In this document: positions 19,341 through 28,427 of the stretch, piece by piece
Layout of the letters: every line of letters starts with the position of its first letter
How positions within the stretch are numbered: position 1 is the stretch's first letter
DNA from: Deltaproteobacteria bacterium
GTDB lineage: Bacteria > Desulfobacterota > Desulfobacteria > Desulfobacterales > C00003060
Length of the DNA stretch: 64,000 nt
Assembly: GCA_019307135.1 (NCBI GenBank)
Contig: JAFDKF010000028.1
Span: 3,535 to 67,534 of the forward strand
Direction: 5' to 3'
Notes under the pieces: generated by a model
What the model was told of the DNA's origin: nothing
Seen by the model: only the letters and a program-made list of their open reading frames with translations
Database searches by the model: none
Program-made: the position numbers and the translations under genes

Positions 19341-19581
19341 GTAACCATTCACGGGTTCAATGGTTCAGGGGTTCAGGGTTCACCGAACAAATGTTGAGAG
19401 CTGACCCCTTGTCACCGCCCGGTTGATGATTGAAAAAACAATCGACAATCGACAACCCCTGGCCCAGACCTGATTTACGGAGGCAGCAGCCTCTTCCAAT
19501 CAAGTCGCACCAGGGCGGGCGTAAATCGACAATCAAAAAAGGTAACCCTGAACGGTGAACTCTGAACCTGTGAACGCCTAC
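19341..19581. repeat. GTTCAC-family palindromic element (241 bp)
   Basis: Ends are gtaaccattcacgggttca.. and ..ctgaacctgtgaacgcctac. The interior holds caatcgacaatcgacaacc and aatcgacaatc words. Confidence 0.65.
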
Positions 19582-19668: not shown

Positions 19669-20439
19669 TCAGTATCCAATATTTTCATGGTTCCCTTTCT
19701 TCCAGAAGATGTTTTTTTCAATAATCGCTCCATTGCTCATTGTATAGCATGAGGTGGAGCCCGAGATTCTTTTTGAAAGATAGGTGGAGTATTTATCGCT
19801 GAATTTAATTCTTTCGTCTAAAGCCTCTGAATAGACACCGGCCAGCCCGAGTATAAGCTCGCACACTTCCCTCACCGCATATTCATCCCCGACATGGGCG
19901 CAGATATAGTCGCAGAGATGGTTTTCTCTGACATAGCGCTCAAAAAGGGGGCTCGCCGTTCTCCTGACAAGGAACCTGAGGCCGCAGGCAGCGGCGATAG
20001 AAAGATCAAGCGCGTCATCAAAGACAAAGGCTATCCGGTCACGGGTAATCTCATATATACTTTCGATATGGTTGACGGCTTCGATCTTATTGGGCAGGCT
20101 GTAATACACAAACTGGAAGTGTTCTCTTCTGGAAAGCTCAAACGCAGACTTATTGTTCTGGCCCGTGATAATGCCAAACAAAGGAAGTTCATCGGACTTC
20201 AGCCAGTGGCCAAACCTGAGCAGGTTGGTCCCCATTGAATCAGGCTCAGCATATGCGCTGTGCGTGCCCTCCCCTTTTACGCCGGCATTAAACACACCGT
20301 CCCAGTCAAAAAGGTATACTTTTATGTTTTTAAGCTTTTCCGCTATCTGCGAAGCAGGTGTGATGAACTCGCCCCCGGCTTCTGAAAAAACCTTTTCAAC
20401 ACTTTCTGAAGATGTATTCACCTGGGTTGAGCGGTTCAA
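19669..20439 (-). CDS. HAD-superfamily phosphatase, divergent KdsC (Kdo-8-P phosphatase)-like
   Basis: Collinear with KdsC blocks: LFDWDGV (DxDGV), IITGQ, PNK, FDDALD, AVREVCELILGLAG. About 45 aa N-terminal and 50 aa C-terminal extensions. Start is TTG 20439 or GTG 20421. Confidence 0.6.
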   Translation of the reverse strand: MNRSTQVNTSSESVEKVFSEAGGEFITPASQIAEKLKNIKVYLFDWDGVFNAGVKGEGTHSAYAEPDSMGTNLLRFGHWLKSDELPLFGIITGQNNKSAFELSRREHFQFVYYSLPNKIEAVNHIESIYEITRDRIAFVFDDALDLSIAAACGLRFLVRRTASPLFERYVRENHLCDYICAHVGDEYAVREVCELILGLAGVYSEALDERIKFSDKYSTYLSKRISGSTSCYTMSNGAIIEKNIFWKKGNHENIGY

Positions 20440-20621
20440 CGTTCACAGTTCCCGGTTGAAGAGCCCTAACTGCTGTTAGCAAGAGGATAACGCGTCAATA
20501 GGGACGAATGTTATGTTTCACCCAATGGCTGAAAGAGGCTAATCTGAGCATTCTGTTATAAAGCTAAGCATATCAATAGATTATAACCTTTGAACCTTGA
20601 ACCCTGAACCTGGAACCGATC
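20425..20621. repeat. GTTCAC-word inverted arms around a ~125-bp interior
   Basis: Left arm ggttgagcggttcaacgttcacagttcccggttgaag, right arm cctttgaaccttgaaccctgaacctggaaccgatc. Confidence 0.5.
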
Positions 20622-20634
20622 ACTTTAGTATTCA

Positions 20635-21660
20635 TCAAGAGAGCAGGTCCTGTTTTATAAGGTCCTGGACATCTATCATTCCGATGAATTCATCATTGTC
20701 CAGAACAATGATATTATCGACCTGCCTGTCCTTGAAAATCTTTACAGCTTGGTACAGGAGCTCGTCTCCGCTAACCGTGAGCGGGGGATTATATGAAAAA
20801 TCGGACATCTTTTTGTTCATAAAGGATTCTGGATCGCGATTGAGCTGTCTTCTTAAGTCGCCGTCAGTAAAAATACCGGTAACCCTGCCGCTGTTATCAA
20901 GCACGGCAACAGCCCCCAGCCTGGAATCGGTCATCTGGACCATTGCGTCGAACACGGTATCCTTCAAGCGAACCGCGGGTTTTGCTTCTCTTATGATTTC
21001 TTTCACGCGCGTGGTCATGAGCTGCGTGTGTATCTCAAACTCCCTGATCCCGACCGTTGTGAAACTGTTTTCAGTAAGCTGTTTCATGACCTTCCAGGGA
21101 ACCGTGCAGGTATGGACGCCAATGTTTATGGCGTTCCGGACATGCTCCGGGTGCCGGACGGATGAAAACATGATTTTTGTATCATAGCCGTAAAATTCAA
21201 CAGCCTCCACGCACTGCTCTATCAAGGCAAGGGCGTCATGTCCTTCATCCTGAAGGCGTCCGACCAGGGGACAGACATAATCAGCGCCAGCGGCCATTGC
21301 CATATATGCCTGCTGGAGTGTGTACACCAGATGGACATTCACTCTCATCCCTTCATCTTTCATTTGCTTGCACGCCCTGACGCCTTCCAGGGAAACAGGG
21401 GTTTTAAAAACCGTTTTTCCCTTATCCAGCCCCAGTCCTATAAGACGGTGAGCCTCCTTCACGATCTCTTCACTGGTATCGCCCAGCGCTTCAATCTGCA
21501 GTACAGGAACTATCTTGGACAGTCTTACGATTGTGCCGTCAACATCGGTAATGCCGTGACGATGCATGAAAGTAGGTGTTGTTGTCAGGCCGGCCAGAAA
21601 ACCGAGTTTAAACGCCTCTTCAATCTCCTTTATGTCTGCTGAATCTAAATAAAGTTCCAT
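20635..21660 (-). CDS. fructose-6-phosphate aldolase/transaldolase (TalC/FSA)-type TIM barrel fused to a KdsD-type CBS pair
   Basis: aa 1-215 read MELYLDSADIKEI..GLTTTPT..TVFKTPVS (Schiff-base Lys position)..GADYVCPLVGR, collinear with E. coli FsaA. aa 225-341 form two CBS motifs containing GIFTDGDLRR, the KdsD/GutQ C-terminal signature. Confidence 0.8.
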   Translation of the reverse strand: MELYLDSADIKEIEEAFKLGFLAGLTTTPTFMHRHGITDVDGTIVRLSKIVPVLQIEALGDTSEEIVKEAHRLIGLGLDKGKTVFKTPVSLEGVRACKQMKDEGMRVNVHLVYTLQQAYMAMAAGADYVCPLVGRLQDEGHDALALIEQCVEAVEFYGYDTKIMFSSVRHPEHVRNAINIGVHTCTVPWKVMKQLTENSFTTVGIREFEIHTQLMTTRVKEIIREAKPAVRLKDTVFDAMVQMTDSRLGAVAVLDNSGRVTGIFTDGDLRRQLNRDPESFMNKKMSDFSYNPPLTVSGDELLYQAVKIFKDRQVDNIIVLDNDEFIGMIDVQDLIKQDLLS

Positions 21661-21731: not shown

Positions 21732-22568
21732 TCATCTCCTCTGTTTAACTTCTATTTCATGAATATCCAGTAAAGGCCTTACAAAATCTTCCACGTCATA
21801 AACGTTGAGCATGCTTGACGCGTCACACAGCGCTTTTTCAGGCTCGGGGTGCGCTTCAATAAAGATGCCGTCCACGCCCGCGGCAACCCCTGCCCGCGAA
21901 AGGGTCGGCAGGAATTCCCTTGAGCCGCCCCTCGGATCCGCGCTTGGTATGCCGTATCTGCGCACGGAATGGGTAATGTCAAAGATCACCGGGAAACCGG
22001 TCTGGTTCAGGTGATAAAAACTCCTTGGATCAACAATAAGGTCGTTGTATCCGAAGGTGTAGCCCCTTTCAGTAAGGAGTATCCGGTCGTTCCCGAAATC
22101 GATGGCTTTCTGTGCCGGCTTCATCATATTGTCAGGCGCAAGGAACTGCCCGTGTTTTATATTGATCACCTTCCCTGTTTTCGCGGCAGCCTCGATCAGG
22201 GACGTCTGCATGCACAGGTAGGCAGGGATCTGGATAACATCCAGCACCTCCGCTGCCGCCGGGACCTGTTCCGAAAAGTGCACGTCGGATATAACCGGGA
22301 GGTCAAACTCTTTTTTTATCCTGCCAAGCAGTTTCAACCCCTCCTCAAAACCAGGCCCCCTGTAATTCTGTGAGGTGCTCCTGTTGTCTTTTTCAGCCGA
22401 AGACTTGTAAATAAGGGGAAGGTCCAGCCGTTCACAGGTCTCCTTCAAAACTTCCGCTGTCTTCATCATCAGGCTCTCTTCTTCAACAACACAGGGGCCT
22501 GCAATGAGGAAAAGCTTTTCACTGCCGCAACTGATATTTTTAACCTGTACGATCTTTTTGCGCTTCAT
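21732..22568 (-). CDS. kdsA: 3-deoxy-8-phosphooctulonate (Kdo-8-P) synthase
   Basis: LIAGPCVVE, YKSSAEKDNRSS-like, DVHF, IPAYLCMQT, FDITHS and GIFIEAHPEP form the KdsA pattern. Confidence 0.9.
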   Translation of the reverse strand: MKRKKIVQVKNISCGSEKLFLIAGPCVVEEESLMMKTAEVLKETCERLDLPLIYKSSAEKDNRSTSQNYRGPGFEEGLKLLGRIKKEFDLPVISDVHFSEQVPAAAEVLDVIQIPAYLCMQTSLIEAAAKTGKVINIKHGQFLAPDNMMKPAQKAIDFGNDRILLTERGYTFGYNDLIVDPRSFYHLNQTGFPVIFDITHSVRRYGIPSADPRGGSREFLPTLSRAGVAAGVDGIFIEAHPEPEKALCDASSMLNVYDVEDFVRPLLDIHEIEVKQRR

Positions 22569-22573
22569 CTATC

Positions 22574-22714
22574 GTAACCGTTCACGGGTTCAGAGGTTCA
22601 GTTAAAAGAATAGAGGTCAGAGATCAGAGGTCGGAGGTCTGGCTTCTGATCTCTGACTTCTGAACTCTGATCTCTGACTTCTGAACGGTGAACTCTGAAC
22701 CTGTGAACGCCTAC
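22574..22714. repeat. GTTCAC-family palindromic element (141 bp), nested arms
   Basis: Outer arms gtaaccgttcacgggttcagaggttcag / ctgaacggtgaactctgaacctgtgaacgcctac. Inner arms gaggtcagagatcagaggtcggaggtc / gatctctgacttctgaactctgatctctgacttc. The element starts 6 nt from the kdsA ATG. Confidence 0.75.
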
Positions 22715-22836: not shown

Positions 22837-23595
22837 TTACTCATAAAAGGAACGATTTGCCCTGATAATTTTTTCTACTTCCGGAATATCTTCCGGTCTG
22901 TCAACCCCGATACTTTTGTATTCAGTTTTTACTATATGAATCGGTATCCCGTTTTCAAGAAGGCGGAGTTGCTCGAGCTTTTCCGTCTGCTCCAGATATC
23001 CGGGCCCCAGTTCCACGAATTTTTTAAGGGTTCTCATCCGGAACGCGTAAATCCCGATGTGCAGAAAAAATTCCACTTTTTTATTGTCCCGCGGATACGG
23101 TATTGGGGACCGTGAGAAGTATAACGCCCTGAGATTGTTGTCAAAAACAACCTTGACGCGATCAGCGCTGTCTTTTTCACCCTGTGTGATCCTCCTTACA
23201 GGCGTTGTCACCTGCACAGCAGGATCGGAAAACGGCTGGATTAACCTTGTCAGCACATGCGGATCAAGCGCGGGTTCATCCCCCTGGATATTTATGACAA
23301 CATCATCTTCCTGAATAACATCAAGCCCTTCAGCGGCTTCAAGCACACGGTCGGATCCGCTCGGGTGGTCAGGGCTTGTCATTACCGTATCAACATCATT
23401 GGACTTTGCGTCGTTAAAAATCTTTTCGCTGTCGGTTGCAAGCACAACGCGTTGTAATATTTGACATTTTTTTGCCTGATTATAAACACGCCAGTACATT
23501 TTTCTGCCTTCGATTGCAGCGAGCGGCTTACCCTCAAAACGTGTTGAGCCGTAGCGGCACGGTATAATACCGTAGCAGGATGGAAGTTCAGTCAT
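22837..23595 (-). CDS. kdsB: 3-deoxy-manno-octulosonate cytidylyltransferase (CMP-Kdo synthetase)
   Basis: ORF 22837..23628 trimmed to ATG 23595. IIPCRYGSTRFEGKPL, ATDS, VINIQGDEP and LEQLRLLENG. Confidence 0.9.
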   Translation of the reverse strand: MTELPSCYGIIPCRYGSTRFEGKPLAAIEGRKMYWRVYNQAKKCQILQRVVLATDSEKIFNDAKSNDVDTVMTSPDHPSGSDRVLEAAEGLDVIQEDDVVINIQGDEPALDPHVLTRLIQPFSDPAVQVTTPVRRITQGEKDSADRVKVVFDNNLRALYFSRSPIPYPRDNKKVEFFLHIGIYAFRMRTLKKFVELGPGYLEQTEKLEQLRLLENGIPIHIVKTEYKSIGVDRPEDIPEVEKIIRANRSFYE

Positions 23596-23614
23596 GGTTT
23601 TACCTAAAGTGATC

Positions 23615-23712
23615 GGTTCAAGGTTCACGGTTCACGGTTCACGGTTCACGGTTCACGGTTTTAACCTCTGAACGTTGAACCGTTGAACCTTGAACCGTTG
23701 AACCGCTCAACC
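23615..23712. repeat. heptamer array (GGTTCAC)x5 paired with GTTGAAC-word arm
   Basis: ggttcaaggttcacggttcacggttcacggttcacggttcacgg tttta acctctgaacgttgaaccgttgaaccttgaaccgttgaaccg. Confidence 0.75.
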
Positions 23713-25003
23713 TAGATTTTACTCGTTTGTTCAGGTATTCGGTTATAAGCCCACACGCCCGGGCCGTCCCCCCCTGACGCGTTTTAACGTACTTAAGCGC
23801 GGCCTCTTGTACTTTTTTACGGTCAGGCGGCTGCTCTATCTCCCGGGCAAGCGTGTCCGCTGCCTCCTTCCAGTCAGAAACTTCACGGAGCAAACCCTGT
23901 TCCACTATTTCCAGGCCTACCCAGGAAAAGCTTTCCCAGTACCGGCCGATCACAGGTATTACTCCGCATAGCAGTGCTTCAAGAAAGTTCTGGCCGCCGA
24001 GCGGAGCAAGTGAACCTCCGACAAAAATAGCCGCGGCCAGCTGGTAGGCCATGGTCAATTCGCCAAATGTATCCCAGAGGATCACAGAACCTTTTTGAAC
24101 AGGTGGCCCTGTTTTTGACCGGAGCAACCACGGTATTTTAAGACGGTCAAGTGTCTTTGCCCACACCCCGATCCTGTGCATATGGCGTGGGAACAGCCCG
24201 ATTACTGTTTCAGGATGCCGGCCCGAGATGTCCGCAATGATCTTTTCAATGTCATCCTCTTCTTCCTGCCGGACAGAGCCCAGGACAAGAAACGGCGCGT
24301 CCGCCGGGATGATCTGCTTTACCCTGTTCTCCCCCGCGGGCGTATTCACGCTGTCTGCCGCCCGGTCGAATTTAATGTTCGGCATTGCACTGACCCTCTC
24401 TCTGCCGAATATCGCGGCAAACCGGTTTGCGTCATCTTCAGACACGGCAAGAATCCTGTCAGGGCTAAGTGAACGCGTAAGGGACGGCCATACCGTGTAT
24501 CTTTTTACATATTTTTCAGTAAGCCTGCCGTTTATGACACATATTTTACAGCCGCTTTTTTTCAGGGCTGACAGATGGCCGGGCCAGATTTCCGTCTCAA
24601 GAAGGACCATAAGCCGGGGCTGTATTTTCCGGACAGCTTTTTCCATAATTGAGGGACGGTCAAAAGGGAAATAGGCGGTTTCCGCTGTAATGCCCCTTGT
24701 GTTTGGCGTAATGTCACTGACAGCCTTTTCCAGTATTCCCATCCCCTGGACCGTGTTTGTTGTCAGGACAATTTTTACAGGATTTTCAGGATACAATGTT
24801 TTTAAAATCGACCATGCCAGGAAGGATTCGCCGACAGAGGCGGCCTGGATCCACAGGTCCGCAGGTCCGGATATTTCCCTTTTAAGAACCCGCTGGTCAA
24901 AACCGTCCGCAAGCCGTCTGTTTAACCTTAAAGCGGGGATGACAAGTCTCCATAAGAAATCATACAGAAGAAATGCGGTTTTTTCGGTTATTCCTGAAGG
25001 CAC
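23639..25003 (-). CDS. waaA: Kdo transferase
   Basis: WIQAASVGE, a GT30 Kdo-transferase N-domain and FVGGSLAPLGGQN. GTG start. The last ~25 codons (SRLSGSTVQGSTVQRSEVKTVNREP) are encoded by a heptamer repeat. Confidence 0.9.
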   Translation of the reverse strand: MPSGITEKTAFLLYDFLWRLVIPALRLNRRLADGFDQRVLKREISGPADLWIQAASVGESFLAWSILKTLYPENPVKIVLTTNTVQGMGILEKAVSDITPNTRGITAETAYFPFDRPSIMEKAVRKIQPRLMVLLETEIWPGHLSALKKSGCKICVINGRLTEKYVKRYTVWPSLTRSLSPDRILAVSEDDANRFAAIFGRERVSAMPNIKFDRAADSVNTPAGENRVKQIIPADAPFLVLGSVRQEEEDDIEKIIADISGRHPETVIGLFPRHMHRIGVWAKTLDRLKIPWLLRSKTGPPVQKGSVILWDTFGELTMAYQLAAAIFVGGSLAPLGGQNFLEALLCGVIPVIGRYWESFSWVGLEIVEQGLLREVSDWKEAADTLAREIEQPPDRKKVQEAALKYVKTRQGGTARACGLITEYLNKRVKSRLSGSTVQGSTVQRSEVKTVNREP

Positions 25004-25238: not shown

Positions 25239-25829
25239 TCAAGACGTGAAATAAATAAAGGTGAAGAAATAGAACACTGCGAAAGATATGAGCACTGCTA
25301 TCAGGTTCCAGTGTCCATTGTTTTGCAAAAGAATGTTCCATCTGAAAAACCATAATAATTTCCAGTCAACCCGCTTAAAGGACGGCACGAACCGGTTTAC
25401 ATTTAGGCAATAATTTTCATATGCTTGCCCAAACAGTATCCGTAACTTTCTTTCCTCGCGTTTTACGCGGTTCACCATATAAAAATAATACAGCACAACA
25501 AAAACAAGGATTACCCAAACATTTCCGGTAAGGAGCAAGTAACCTAGTAATAGAAAAAAACGGCCGATGTACATCGGGTTTCTCATCAACATATAAAGCC
25601 CTTTAACGGCGAGTGTTCTATTTTTCTCCAGAGAAGCGAAGCACCAAAGCTGGATCAATTCACCGAATAGGCTCATAACAAGTCCCACGAAAAACCAAGA
25701 TGACTTTATTTGTGGGATCAAAATTATGAAGAAAACCAAAAAAATCGGATACCGAAGTTTTAACAGGGCCGATCTTAATACCTTATTGTTGAAAATTTCA
25801 TGGGTTCGATTCACTATATTATCGAGCAT
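25239..25829 (-). CDS. ICMT/Ste14/PEMT-family membrane methyltransferase
   Basis: 5-6 TM helices and the C-terminal motif GLYMLMRNPMYIGRFFLLLGY..EERKL, typical of isoprenylcysteine carboxyl methyltransferase-like enzymes. Confidence 0.75.
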   Translation of the reverse strand: MLDNIVNRTHEIFNNKVLRSALLKLRYPIFLVFFIILIPQIKSSWFFVGLVMSLFGELIQLWCFASLEKNRTLAVKGLYMLMRNPMYIGRFFLLLGYLLLTGNVWVILVFVVLYYFYMVNRVKREERKLRILFGQAYENYCLNVNRFVPSFKRVDWKLLWFFRWNILLQNNGHWNLIAVLISFAVFYFFTFIYFTS

Positions 25830-25936: not shown

Positions 25937-26073
25937 TCAATAGGTTCTAAAATTTCTGAGTAACTTCTCAAAAAGTTCGGGTATGTTTATTATGAGCCAG
26001 TTTGCTGGATGCCCGCTTTCGCGGGCATGACGGGGGATTTATTACATTCGTCATTCCTGCGAAGGCGGGAATC
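25937..26073. mobile_element. MITE-like element family A, right end truncated
   Basis: ttcaataggttctaaaatttctgagtaacttctcaaaaagttcgggta..ggatgcccgctttcgcgggcatgacg..gtcattcctgcgaaggcgggaatc. Its left flank is shared with the 18.3 kb copy. Confidence 0.6.
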
Positions 26074-26685
26074 ACGTCTAACCATATCACGGATGGACTT
26101 TATTGCCCTGCCAGGCAGCCATAGATCGCTCAGGGTCTTGCCCAGGGCAAGCCTTCTCCTCTCCTTATTGGTCATGCTCTCAGGGTTAAGCTTTCCTTTT
26201 ACCTTGAGAAAACCCATTCGGTCAATGCTCGCCAGGAAATCCTTGAGCTTCCCTGGCCGTGGGATGTAAAGGCATGATGCGAAGTCTACGAGGTACGGAA
26301 GCCCACTATCGTCTATGCCGTAATTTCTCCTGTTCCTCAGGTCCAGATGCAGAACCCCCCTCTGGTGCATCTGCTCAATAATCTTTGAGAGTTTCTCAAA
26401 GTAGGCGCCATCTGGCTTCTTTGTTGTCGCTCTGAGGTTTTCGCCCCCCATATAGGATGTGACGAGAGTGTACCTATCTGGCCTGCCGGTGAGCTTTGGT
26501 ATACCGGATATGTCCTTTAGCCTTGAGTAGATAAAAGCCTCCCAGGAGACGAGCAGTATCCCCATCATGCGCACAGGCCAGGCTTTGTTCCTGTAAGTCT
26601 TTTCCACAAGGCATCTGCCATCAAGACGCATCAATGAAACATCAGGCCCGTAGATACGTTTCTTTTTAAAGACCATCTGTGTCAT
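25990..26685 (-). CDS. small RIO/Kdo-kinase-like protein kinase fold
   Basis: VEKTY..(Lys), catalytic loop VLHLDLRNRRN and DFASC (DFG-like). The C-terminal ~20 codons and the stop lie in a MITE-like repeat. Confidence 0.55.
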   Translation of the reverse strand: MTQMVFKKKRIYGPDVSLMRLDGRCLVEKTYRNKAWPVRMMGILLVSWEAFIYSRLKDISGIPKLTGRPDRYTLVTSYMGGENLRATTKKPDGAYFEKLSKIIEQMHQRGVLHLDLRNRRNYGIDDSGLPYLVDFASCLYIPRPGKLKDFLASIDRMGFLKVKGKLNPESMTNKERRRLALGKTLSDLWLPGRAIKSIRDMVRRDSRLRRNDECNKSPVMPAKAGIQQTGS

Positions 26686-28323: not shown

Positions 28324-28427
28324 GTAACCGTTCACAGGTTCACCGTTCACCGTTCAGATTTTCGGTGAACCCTGAACCCTGAACCCTAAACCCTGAACCC
28401 TGAACCTCTGAACCCGTGAACGGTTAC
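28324..28427. repeat. GTTCAC-family palindromic element, compact 104-bp copy
   Basis: Perfect 12-nt termini gtaaccgttcac / gtgaacggttac. The arms are made of ggttcac and gaaccct heptamers. Confidence 0.8.

What the first reader, a model, noticed from the sequence alone, without database searches (positions are those of the whole stretch)
20635..21660. The kdsD slot of the Kdo operon holds an FSA/transaldolase-type barrel fused to a KdsD-type CBS pair
Seen in sequence: the minus-strand order is waaA-kdsB-kdsA-(this gene)-kdsC-like. It covers every Kdo step except arabinose-5-phosphate (A5P) isomerase. This 341-aa ORF ends in a CBS pair carrying GIFTDGDLRR, which I recognise as the KdsD/GutQ C-terminal signature. 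The N-terminal 215 aa are not a SIS domain. They are collinear with E. coli fructose-6-phosphate aldolase/TalC (MELYLD.., TVFKTPVS at the Schiff-base lysine, GADYV.P.VGR). Established knowledge (from memory): FSA can form D-arabinose-5-phosphate from glycolaldehyde plus glyceraldehyde-3-phosphate in vitro. Inference: a domain swap kept the KdsD regulatory module but replaced the isomerase with an aldolase. That would give a non-orthologous supply of A5P, or of a variant sugar phosphate, for KdsA. I do not know of a described pathway of this kind.
Basis: partly seen in the sequence, partly recalled or inferred. Interest (0 to 1): 0.8.

Follow-up and report, generated by a model that had tools for sequence, protein, structure and literature searches.

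The report
Transaldolase-like enzyme replacing KdsD in Kdo operons
In this bacterium's operon for Kdo, an essential lipopolysaccharide sugar, the usual first enzyme is replaced by a modified transaldolase-type barrel fused to that enzyme's regulatory tail; this undescribed enzyme family always sits next to the Kdo-8-phosphate synthase gene and probably supplies its sugar-phosphate substrate in a new way.

Summary
ORF 20635-21660 (-) encodes 341 aa: a TAL_FSA barrel plus a KdsD-type CBS pair, with no SIS domain. It lies in waaA-kdsB-kdsA-X-kdsC' inside a roughly 30-kb LPS locus. The barrel is closer to small transaldolases than to FSA. It keeps the Schiff-base Lys86, Asp6, Glu57 and the phosphate site. 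Three active-site residues are switched in every member: Thr110 to His, Ser130 to Cys and Phe132 to Leu.

All 80 best genome hits carry the full-length fusion, in Bacteroidota and Desulfobacterales; up to about 590 species matched. A kdsA and/or kdsC-like gene is directly adjacent in 49 of 60 fully flanked loci. Eight distant clades (30-60% identity), three lacking the CBS pair, all follow a bona fide KDO8P synthase gene. None of 54 canonical transaldolase loci do.

No SIS-type kdsD lies in the window or in any related locus. No paper found describes the family.

Best reading: X supplies arabinose-5-phosphate to KdsA by Schiff-base chemistry, in place of KdsD. The reaction is unresolved: glycolaldehyde plus GAP, or ribose-5-P 2-epimerisation. 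I could not test genome-wide absence of KdsD.

The parts
20635..21660 (-). Gene X: 341-aa fusion of a transaldolase-like barrel and a CBS pair (includes the stop codon at 20635-20637).
   Evidence: ORF. Pfam TAL_FSA + CBS x2. AF2 model with pLDDT 89.5.
21025..21660 (-). TAL/FSA-fold TIM barrel, residues 1-212. Key codons: Asp6 21643-21645, Thr28 21577-21579, Glu57 21490-21492, Lys86 21403-21405, Asn108 21337-21339, His110 21331-21333, Cys130 21271-21273, Leu132 21265-21267, Arg135 21256-21258, Ser167 21160-21162, Arg169 21154-21156.
   Evidence: Alignment to TacTal, BsTal, TmTal and FsaA. Codon coordinates. Foldseek top hits 1vpx, 3r8r and 3s0c.
20638..21024 (-). KdsD/KpsF-type CBS pair, residues 213-341, containing GIFTDGDLRR.
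   Evidence: NCBIfam TIGR00393, NF008141 and NF008581 are the best matches for this part. PDB 4o9k, 3k2v and 3fna match best. tblastn with E. coli KdsD residues 205-324 gives E = 1e-10.
21732..22568 (-). kdsA, KDO-8-phosphate synthase (Cys-type, i.e. metal-dependent class, judged from the GPCVVE motif), directly upstream of X.
   Evidence: NF003543 at 336.7 bits (cutoff 242) and TIGR01362 at 322.6 bits (cutoff 314).
19669..20439 (-). kdsC-like HAD phosphatase (longest ORF). Homology to relatives starts at residue 7. The original ATG overlapped the stop codon of X.
   Evidence: NF007019 KdsC at 50 bits. tblastn with E. coli KdsC gives E = 1e-9. It is the conserved downstream partner in 46 of 72 loci.
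22837..23628 (-). kdsB, CMP-Kdo synthetase.
   Evidence: NF003952 at 304 bits (cutoff 193).
23639..25003 (-). waaA, Kdo transferase.
   Evidence: Pfam Glycos_transf_N. NF004388 at 206 bits, below its cutoff.
20421..20627 (-). 207-nt MITE-like insertion (a 200-nt element plus a 7-bp target duplication, TGAATAC). It separates X from kdsC-like and is absent from 98%-identical relatives.
   Evidence: blastn against L009 and L010. Junction sequences. Hairpin fold.

Best explanation
Gene X encodes the enzyme that feeds D-arabinose-5-phosphate (A5P) to KDO-8-phosphate synthase. It is a non-orthologous replacement of the SIS-type isomerase KdsD/KpsF, within a three-gene cassette kdsA-X-kdsC'.

Shown:
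- X is a small-transaldolase-fold barrel. It keeps the complete covalent-catalysis and phosphate-binding apparatus: Asp6, Glu57 (= TacTal Glu60), Schiff-base Lys86, Asn108, Arg135, Ser167 and Arg169.
- Three active-site positions are switched in every member: Thr110 to His, Ser130 to Cys, Phe132 to Leu.
- X carries a KdsD-type CBS pair.
- Barrels with this signature, with or without the CBS pair, lie directly after a bona fide KDO8PS gene in every clade examined. Canonical transaldolases do not.

Inferred:
- The unchanged distance between Lys86 and the phosphate site fits an aldose-5-phosphate bound through C1. That is fructose-6-P minus its C1 hydroxymethyl group, which is exactly A5P.
- The three switched residues are those that, from the literature (recalled, not tested here), bind the donor C1-OH (Ser), hold the catalytic water (Thr), and decide whether the enamine is protonated (Phe versus Tyr).
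- I therefore propose Lys86 iminium/enamine chemistry on a two-carbon glycolaldehyde unit, with His110 as the added proton donor/acceptor, releasing A5P.
- The glycolaldehyde unit could come from free glycolaldehyde plus GAP, as E. coli FSA does. Or it could come from ribose-5-phosphate, giving net C2 epimerisation with or without transient C2-C3 cleavage.
- I rank these two routes about equal. Only the first has a precedent in this fold. Only the second uses universal metabolites, which suits a self-contained, horizontally transferred cassette.
- The CBS pair probably keeps whatever feedback sensing it performs in KdsD.
For: Domains and residues
- Domain architecture.
- In 50 family members His110 and Leu132 are invariant and Cys130 occurs in 42 of 50. 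Asp6, Glu, Lys86, Asn108, Arg135, Ser167 and Arg169 are invariant.
- In a comparison of 41 signature barrels with 126 canonical transaldolases, positions 110, 130 and 132 are the only ones that separate the groups. Positions 110 and 132 defined the groups; 130 is independent (95% Cys versus 4%). 23 other positions, including all catalytic and phosphate residues, are shared.

Synteny in 80 species
- kdsA lies directly upstream in 43 of 68 loci.
- kdsC-like lies directly downstream in 46 of 72 loci.
- At least one of the two is adjacent in 49 of 60 loci with both flanks.
- No other gene family is conserved nearby.

Distant clades (30-60% identity)
- P0273 clade: kdsB-kdsA-X.
- P0260 clade: kdsA-rSAM-X.
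- P0255 clade: kdsB-kdsA-X-kdsC, with overlapping stop and start codons.
- P0258 clade: kdsA-X.
- L101 fusion, and the CBS-less barrels L100, L102 and L103: all follow kdsA.
- The neighbouring synthases tested (L095, L097, L100, L102, L103) pass the KDO8PS equivalog NF003543.

Control
- 0 of 54 canonical TSF transaldolase loci have kdsA within 1 kb upstream, against 8 of 8 signature clades (Fisher p = 3e-10).

No SIS-type KdsD nearby
- There is no tblastn hit to the E. coli KdsD SIS domain in the 64-kb window, in the 80 genome loci or in the distant-clade loci (L180-L183 by Pfam labels only).
- The window nevertheless holds most LPS genes: lpxB/D/K, lptF/G, an msbA-like gene, waaA, kdsA/B/C' and two GT9 genes.

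Precedents
- E. coli has the order kdsD-kdsC, mirrored here by X-kdsC'.
- FSA makes A5P from glycolaldehyde + GAP (PMC9947464).
Against: - I could not test genome-wide absence of a SIS-type KdsD. Only the window and up to 10 kb either side of each related gene were searched.
- No activity data exist.
- About 17% of fully flanked loci (10 of 60) have neither kdsA nor kdsC' nearby, for example Thermoflexibacter ruber (L024). The separately fetched locus of bacterium 336/3 (L003) also lacks both.
- Free glycolaldehyde is not a known abundant metabolite, and the cassette carries no gene to make it.
- Ribose-5-P 2-epimerisation by a class I aldolase fold has no precedent.
- Phe132 to Leu enlarges the donor pocket rather than shrinking it, which is not obviously what a glycolaldehyde donor needs.
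- In distant clades the cassette sits in glycan clusters with radical-SAM, SDR and methyltransferase genes. The product there might be a modified sugar.
Confidence: 0.6

Rival explanations
1. One reading: X is an FSA-type lyase that condenses free glycolaldehyde with glyceraldehyde-3-phosphate to make A5P.
For: - E. coli FsaA catalyses exactly this reaction and is used as an 'Ara5P aldolase' in vivo (PMC9947464).
- The stereochemistry of the fold gives the D-arabino configuration (established knowledge).
- His110 could play the role of FSA Tyr131.
- The kdsA linkage is strong.
Against: - The FSA-specific residues Gln59, Leu107, Ala129 and Tyr131 are all absent.
- The barrel is closer to transaldolases.
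- No glycolaldehyde-forming gene is conserved near X in 80 loci.
- Self-contained four-gene operons such as L180 imply substrates from central metabolism.
Confidence: 0.27
2. A canonical KdsD exists elsewhere in the genome. X is an accessory, CBS-regulated (trans)aldolase that tunes pentose-phosphate or GAP pools, or removes excess A5P, for Kdo synthesis.
For: - Genome-wide absence of KdsD was not tested.
- The catalytic residues of transaldolase are largely kept.
- Three canonical or near-canonical transaldolase loci (L107, L121, L126) also lie near Kdo genes.
Against: - Thr110 and Phe132 are invariant in the 126 canonical transaldolases compared, and both are replaced in X.
- Transaldolase does not produce Ru5P or A5P.
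- Cassettes carry X but never a SIS gene.
- NCBIfam transaldolase and FSA equivalog cutoffs are not reached.
Confidence: 0.2
3. X makes a different aldose phosphate, so the cassette produces a Kdo-like but non-Kdo ulosonic acid.
For: - In distant clades the cassette is embedded in glycan clusters with radical SAM/SPASM, SDR, 2-hydroxyacid dehydrogenase and methyltransferase genes.
- The KdsC-like protein of the main family is very divergent: 50 bits against a cutoff of 208.
Against: - The adjacent synthases tested pass the KDO8PS equivalog model.
- The window operon continues into kdsB and waaA inside a lipid A/core locus. This implies genuine Kdo for lipid A.
Confidence: 0.08
4. X is a non-covalent ribulose-5-P to A5P isomerase that evolved on the transaldolase scaffold. 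Glu57 and His110 would act as the base pair and Lys86 as an electrostatic catalyst, in the manner of triosephosphate isomerase.
For: - It would keep the same overall reaction as KdsD.
- The Glu/His/Lys triad is invariant.
- It uses a universal metabolite.
Against: - The complete Schiff-base apparatus, including Asp6 and Thr26/27, is conserved exactly as in transaldolases. That is unexpected if covalent catalysis had been abandoned.
- No precedent exists in this fold.
Confidence: 0.08

Closest known systems
Small (about 215-aa, decameric) transaldolases: Thermoplasma acidophilum TacTal (3S0C), B. subtilis (3R8R), T. maritima (1VPX)
   Same: - Same fold: Foldseek TM 0.87-0.92 on the target, 32-34% identity.
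- Same Asp6, Glu60, Lys86, Asn108, Arg135, Ser167 and Arg169.
   Different: - Thr110 to His, Ser130 to Cys and Phe132 to Leu (plus Asn28 to Thr in the main family).
- A C-terminal CBS pair.
- Always next to kdsA, which canonical transaldolases are not.
- Below the NCBIfam family cutoffs.
E. coli fructose-6-phosphate aldolase FsaA/FsaB (TalC/MipB)
   Same: - Same fold, the same N-terminal MELYLD motif and the same Schiff-base lysine.
- FSA is the only enzyme of this fold known to make A5P, from glycolaldehyde + GAP (PMC9947464).
   Different: - Only 24-26% identity; 68 bits against 128 bits for transaldolase.
- Lacks Gln59, Leu107, Ala129 and Tyr131.
- FSA has no CBS pair and no Kdo gene context.
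KdsD / KpsF / GutQ arabinose-5-phosphate isomerases (SIS + CBS pair)
   Same: - C-terminal CBS pair with the GIFTDGDLRR motif.
- Gene position immediately before kdsC (E. coli kdsD-kdsC).
- Presence in both LPS and capsule-type Kdo clusters, as with kdsD and kpsF.
   Different: The catalytic SIS domain is entirely absent and is replaced by an unrelated TIM barrel.
Single-domain arabinose-5-P isomerases (SIS only; E. coli c3406, Bacteroides fragilis API). Recalled from memory, not tested.
   Same: They show that the CBS pair is dispensable for A5P supply. The CBS-less signature barrels (L100, L102, L103) are the parallel case here.
   Different: Different catalytic fold.

Membership tests
Transaldolase/FSA superfamily (Pfam PF00923) | Sequence match above the Pfam gathering score, and the TIM-barrel fold. 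| tested here: met
   121.5 bits against a cutoff of 27. Foldseek probability 1.00 to 1vpx, 3r8r and 3s0c.
Transaldolase/FSA superfamily (Pfam PF00923) | Schiff-base lysine on strand beta-4 and the phosphate site Arg135/Ser167/Arg169. | tested here: met
   Lys86, Arg135, Ser167 and Arg169 align and are invariant in the family.
Transaldolase proper (EC 2.2.1.2, small subfamily) | Thr110 (catalytic-water holder), Ser130 (donor C1-OH binder) and Phe132 (non-protic residue over the enamine). | tested here: not met
   His, Cys and Leu in all or nearly all members. Canonical enzymes have T 100%, S 94% and F 100%.
Transaldolase proper (EC 2.2.1.2, small subfamily) | Score above the curated NCBIfam cutoff. 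| tested here: not met
   TIGR00875 at 171.6 against 245.95. TIGR02134 at 58.7 against 281.95.
Transaldolase proper (EC 2.2.1.2, small subfamily) | Dihydroxyacetone transfer between F6P/S7P and GAP/E4P. | not testable with these tools
   Requires an enzyme assay.
Fructose-6-phosphate aldolase (FSA) | Gln59 and Tyr131 as the acid-base pair, with the Leu107/Ala129 donor pocket. | tested here: not met
   X has Glu, Leu, Asn and Cys at these positions.
Fructose-6-phosphate aldolase (FSA) | Score above the NCBIfam FSA equivalog cutoffs. | tested here: not met
   NF009299 at 101.7 against 214. NF009296 at 99.7 against 306.
KdsD/KpsF/GutQ arabinose-5-phosphate isomerase | N-terminal SIS (sugar isomerase) domain. 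| tested here: not met
   No SIS hit in Pfam. NCBIfam KdsD models match only residues 216-337. tblastn with the E. coli SIS domain finds nothing.
KdsD/KpsF/GutQ arabinose-5-phosphate isomerase | C-terminal CBS pair with the GIFTDGDLRR motif. | tested here: met
KdsD/KpsF/GutQ arabinose-5-phosphate isomerase | Supplies A5P for KdsA (rescues a kdsD gutQ mutant). | not testable with these tools
   Only gene-context evidence is available.
KdsD/KpsF/GutQ arabinose-5-phosphate isomerase | Is the only A5P source in the genome (no paralogous KdsD). | not tested
Only up to 10 kb either side of each locus and the 64-kb window were searched.

The most novel reading that the evidence does not exclude
X is a pentose-5-phosphate 2-epimerase. 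It binds ribose-5-phosphate through a Lys86 aldimine at C1 and forms the enamine, either by C2 deprotonation or by transient retro-aldol cleavage to enzyme-bound glycolaldehyde enamine plus GAP. It then regenerates the sugar with the D-arabino configuration, using His110 as the new proton donor. If so, the first committed step of Kdo synthesis in up to several hundred Bacteroidota and Desulfobacterales species would be a previously unknown reaction (R5P to A5P) on an aldolase scaffold, bypassing ribulose-5-P and the SIS isomerase altogether.
Probability: 0.22. Interest if true: 0.9.

Novelty: new variant of a known kind. Interest (0 to 1): 0.72.

Why it matters
A5P isomerase (KdsD) is treated as the universal first committed step of Kdo and LPS synthesis, and as an antibiotic target. 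If X does this job, that step is done differently in whole lineages of Gram-negative bacteria, by an enzyme family currently annotated only as 'transaldolase' or 'CBS domain protein'.

It would close an annotation gap in metabolic reconstructions of many Bacteroidota and sulfate reducers. It would give a natural example of a three-residue switch that re-purposes transaldolase. It might also provide a natural A5P-forming aldolase or epimerase of use to synthetic glycolaldehyde-assimilation pathways.

The hypothesis is directly testable. Cultured hosts exist (Thermonema rossianum DSM 10300, Thermoflexibacter ruber DSM 9560, Xanthocytophaga flavus NT2B1), and so does an E. coli A5P-auxotroph assay.

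Tried and rejected
1. 'Slot' comparison. I looked for relatives with waaA-kdsB-kdsA-kdsD-kdsC by taking KdsB homologues and reading their contexts. In other Desulfobacterales kdsB is followed by unrelated genes or by glmS. No like-for-like slot exists, and the kdsA-X-kdsC' unit looks like an inserted cassette.

2. Genome-wide search for KdsD. This is not possible with the tools. I judged the remaining homologue search unable to answer, because it lists only the best 120 hits, and I did not spend it.

3. Phages. tblastn of a marine-clade fusion against 50,697 phage records found only canonical TalC, with no match covering at least 80% of the query. The cyanophage paper that mentions kdsA, kdsB and talC (PMC12801897) does not link them.

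4. Literature. Seven full-text searches found no paper on a transaldolase-CBS protein or on an alternative A5P source for Kdo.

5. A search for a fourth conserved partner, such as a glycolaldehyde source, in 80 loci found none.

6. An 11-sequence alignment of CBS-less barrels was too diverse for a collection scan. It was replaced by a 4-sequence alignment.

7. Ordinary transaldolase: rejected as the primary reading because of the signature residues and the context control.

8. Covalent Ru5P isomerisation through Lys86: rejected on chemical grounds. It would give a dead-end Heyns or Amadori adduct.
Full report
**1. Observation**

The 341-aa ORF at 20635-21660 (-) is real. Pfam finds a TAL_FSA domain at residues 3-201 (121.5 bits) and two CBS domains (from residue 219 on), with no SIS domain.

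NCBIfam matches the N-terminal part to the fsa_talC_mipB model at 171.6 bits, below its cutoff of 245.95. It matches the C-terminal part best to KpsF/GutQ (TIGR00393), KdsD and GutQ, over residues 216-337 only.

The neighbours on the same strand are:
- waaA (23639-25003)
- kdsB (22837-23628)
- kdsA (21732-22568), which passes the KDO8PS equivalog models
- downstream, a divergent KdsC-like HAD phosphatase (19669-20439)

The motif GIFTDGDLRR is identical in E. coli KdsD.

**2. The locus**

The window between about 10.8 and 42 kb is an LPS super-locus. It holds two GT9 heptosyltransferases, an LPS kinase, lpxD, mlaA, an MMPL transporter, mlaC, kdsC', X, kdsA, kdsB, waaA, lpxK, lptF, lptG, an msbA-like ABC exporter, DUF374 and lpxB. 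Every Kdo step is encoded there except A5P isomerase. A tblastn search with the E. coli KdsD SIS domain finds nothing in the 64 kb.

**3. What the barrel is**

By sequence it is closer to the small decameric transaldolases than to E. coli FSA. B. subtilis 3R8R scores 128 bits, T. maritima 1VPX 119 bits and T. acidophilum 3S0C 109 bits, against 68 bits for FSA 1L6W.

An AlphaFold model (pLDDT 89.5) gives the same ranking by fold. Transaldolases reach TM 0.87-0.92 at 32-34% identity, and FSA has 24-26% identity.

Aligned to TacTal, X keeps Asp6, Glu (X residue 57 = TacTal 60), the Schiff-base Lys86, Asn108 and the phosphate site Arg135/Ser167/Arg169. It has Thr for Asn28, His for Thr110, Cys for Ser130 and Leu for Phe132. 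The FSA-diagnostic residues Gln59, Leu107, Ala129 and Tyr131 are all absent. The label 'FSA-type' is therefore not supported.

**4. The family and its signature**

The 120 best database hits all have the TAL_FSA + CBS architecture at 64-100% identity. Sources name them only 'transaldolase (family protein)', 'TalC/MipB family fructose-6-phosphate aldolase', 'CBS domain-containing protein' or 'hypothetical protein'. In 50 members His110 and Leu132 are invariant and Cys130 occurs in 42.

An exhaustive search of 50%-identity representatives found three further groups:
- Full-length fusions at 30-40% identity that keep Lys86 and the His/Cys/Leu trio.
- Stand-alone barrels of about 215 aa with the same NEKNHCL or TEKNHCL signature.
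- A degenerate clade that has lost Lys86 and the phosphate site.

I compared 41 signature barrels with 126 canonical transaldolases. Positions 110, 130 and 132 are the only ones that separate the groups, and 23 positions including all catalytic residues are shared. Positions 110 and 132 defined the groups. Position 130 is an independent confirmation (95% Cys against 4%).

From the literature (recalled from memory), these three positions hold the catalytic water, bind the donor's C1 hydroxyl, and decide transferase versus lyase behaviour. TalB F178Y and TacTal E60Q/F132Y gain aldolase activity; PDB 4xz9 appears.

**5. Distribution and synteny**

All 80 best loci encode the full-length fusion. 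Eleven are Desulfobacterales or 'Deltaproteobacteria'. The rest are Bacteroidota (Cytophagales, Flavobacteriales, Bacteroidales, Sphingobacteriales), apart from two MAG records not labelled as either phylum (L052 'bacterium'; L076 'Agrobacterium sp.'). The cultured species are Thermonema rossianum, Thermoflexibacter ruber and Xanthocytophaga flavus.

- kdsA lies directly upstream on the same strand in 43 of 68 loci with enough flank.
- The KdsC-like gene lies directly downstream in 46 of 72 loci.
- Of 60 loci with both flanks, 49 have at least one partner adjacent and 28 have both.
- Clustering all neighbouring ORFs shows that only these three families are conserved around X. kdsB comes next, in 11 loci.
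- No locus has a hit to the KdsD SIS domain.
- Cassette KdsA proteins are 61-77% identical between the two phyla, whereas KdsB is about 40%. This suggests the three genes travel together. That is an inference.

**6. Deep conservation and a natural control**

Contexts of distant clades:

| Clade or locus | Gene order |
|---|---|
| P0273 marine clade | rSAM/SPASM - SDR - kdsB - kdsA - X - ABC transporter |
| P0260 clade | kdsA - rSAM - X - glycosyltransferases |
| P0255 clade | kdsB - kdsA - X - kdsC, overlapping stop/start codons, in a polysaccharide cluster |
| P0258 clade | cytidylyltransferase ... kdsA - X |

A metagenome scan seeded with CBS-less barrels returned 80 loci. The four with the His/Cys/Leu signature (L100, L102 and L103 without CBS; L101 with CBS) all follow a DAHP_synth_1 gene. 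In L100 and L102 the stop and start codons overlap. These neighbours, and those of L095 and L097, pass the KDO8PS equivalog NF003543.

Of the 54 loci that carry a canonical Thr/Ser/Phe transaldolase and have at least 1 kb upstream, none has kdsA within 1 kb. One (L126) has a canonical kdsA-kdsC-kdsD(SIS+CBS) cluster a few kb away. Eight of eight signature clades against none of 54 gives Fisher p = 3e-10. The kdsA linkage is therefore a property of the modified active site, not of the transaldolase fold or of the CBS pair.

**7. Interpretation**

A self-contained Kdo operon needs four functions: A5P supply, KDO8P synthase, KDO8P phosphatase and CMP-Kdo synthetase. In these cassettes X is the only candidate for the first. 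It stands where kdsD stands before kdsC in E. coli and usually carries KdsD's own regulatory module. I therefore conclude, at about 0.6-0.65, that X supplies A5P to KdsA.

The retained Lys/Asp/Glu apparatus argues that covalent iminium/enamine chemistry is kept. The unchanged distance between lysine and phosphate site fits an aldose-5-phosphate bound at C1, which is F6P without its hydroxymethyl group, i.e. A5P. Two reactions fit:

- (a) Glycolaldehyde + GAP to A5P. E. coli FSA does this in vitro and in engineered pathways (PMC9947464).
- (b) Ribose-5-P to A5P, by C2 epimerisation through the same enamine.

Route (a) has precedent but no visible glycolaldehyde source. Nothing of the kind is conserved in 80 loci. 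Route (b) uses a universal metabolite but is unprecedented.

A non-covalent Ru5P isomerase is a weaker third option. Covalent Ru5P isomerisation is chemically excluded because it would give a dead-end amino-sugar adduct.

**8. What remains open**

I could not search whole genomes, so I cannot say that these organisms lack a SIS-type KdsD. The attempt to compare the 'slot' in close relatives failed, because kdsB contexts in other Desulfobacterales are unrelated. About one locus in six has X without Kdo neighbours. In distant clades the surrounding genes hint at modified sugars.

**9. Novelty**

Seven full-text searches found no description of a transaldolase-CBS protein, of this signature, or of a non-SIS source of A5P for Kdo. 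No solved structure carries the signature: the closest PDB entries are canonical transaldolases. I classify X as a new functional variant within a known superfamily and a variant of a known pathway. If route (b) is true, the reaction itself would be new.

Noticed in passing
window 20421-20627 (-): A 207-nt insertion (a 200-nt element plus a 7-bp target-site duplication, TGAATAC) sits exactly at the junction of X and kdsC'. In 98%-identical relatives (L009, L010) the stop codon of X and the ATG of kdsC' overlap (TGATG). Here the coupling is broken, and kdsC' must start at a GTG or TTG created at the downstream duplication. The element has heptamer-repeat inverted ends and folds as a long hairpin.
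   Followed up: partly
window 19549-19568, 20591-20617, 22682-22701, 23615-23655, 28366-28406: Tandem heptamers (GGTTCAN)n recur in or next to the gaps between LPS genes: 12 matches against 0 expected. One array overlaps the kdsB start and the 3' end of waaA. This looks like a REP/MITE-like repeat family.
   Followed up: partly
P0245, P0246, P0256, P0265; loci L098, L099: A clade of TAL-CBS fusions (32-40% identical to X) has lost Lys86 (Arg or Ser instead), Asp6, Arg135 and Arg169 (Ser167 is lost in three of the four) but keeps a very KdsD-like CBS pair. It is probably a pseudo-enzyme. The one context seen is next to a Peptidase_M61 gene, with no Kdo genes on these short contigs.
   Followed up: partly
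L094-L097, L100-L103, L180-L183: In distant clades the kdsA-X pair is embedded in polysaccharide clusters. A radical SAM/SPASM protein recurs, along with SDR, 2-hydroxyacid dehydrogenase, methyltransferase and cytidylyltransferase genes. This hints at modified Kdo-type sugars in capsules or O-antigens.
   Followed up: no
L009-L088 versus the window: Cassette KdsA is 61-77% identical between Desulfobacterales and Bacteroidota, and X is 63-71%. KdsB is only 37-42%. The kdsA-X-kdsC' unit seems to have moved between phyla as a block.
   Followed up: partly
L107, L121, L126: Three canonical or near-canonical transaldolase genes lie near Kdo genes. L107 (signature NEKTTCF) abuts a canonical kdsC. 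L126 lies 1.7 kb downstream of kdsA-kdsC-kdsD(SIS+CBS). These may be remnants of the association from which the signature subfamily arose.
   Followed up: no
L001 (CP070768.1) versus L002 (CP070789.1): In one of two closed Desulfobacterales MAGs, kdsB is split (172 + 52 aa) and several neighbouring genes are truncated. The sister genome has them intact. Long-read indel errors are more likely than real pseudogenes.
   Followed up: no
L076: A locus labelled 'Agrobacterium sp. 719_389' MAG has the same arrangement and identities as the Bacteroidia locus L068. It is probably a mis-binned contig.
   Followed up: no
window 25239-25829 and 25990-26685 (-): Between waaA and the SGNH/carbamoyltransferase genes lie a PEMT/ICMT-like membrane methyltransferase and a small kinase-like protein (weak Pkinase hit). 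These are possible lipid A or core modification genes.
   Followed up: no
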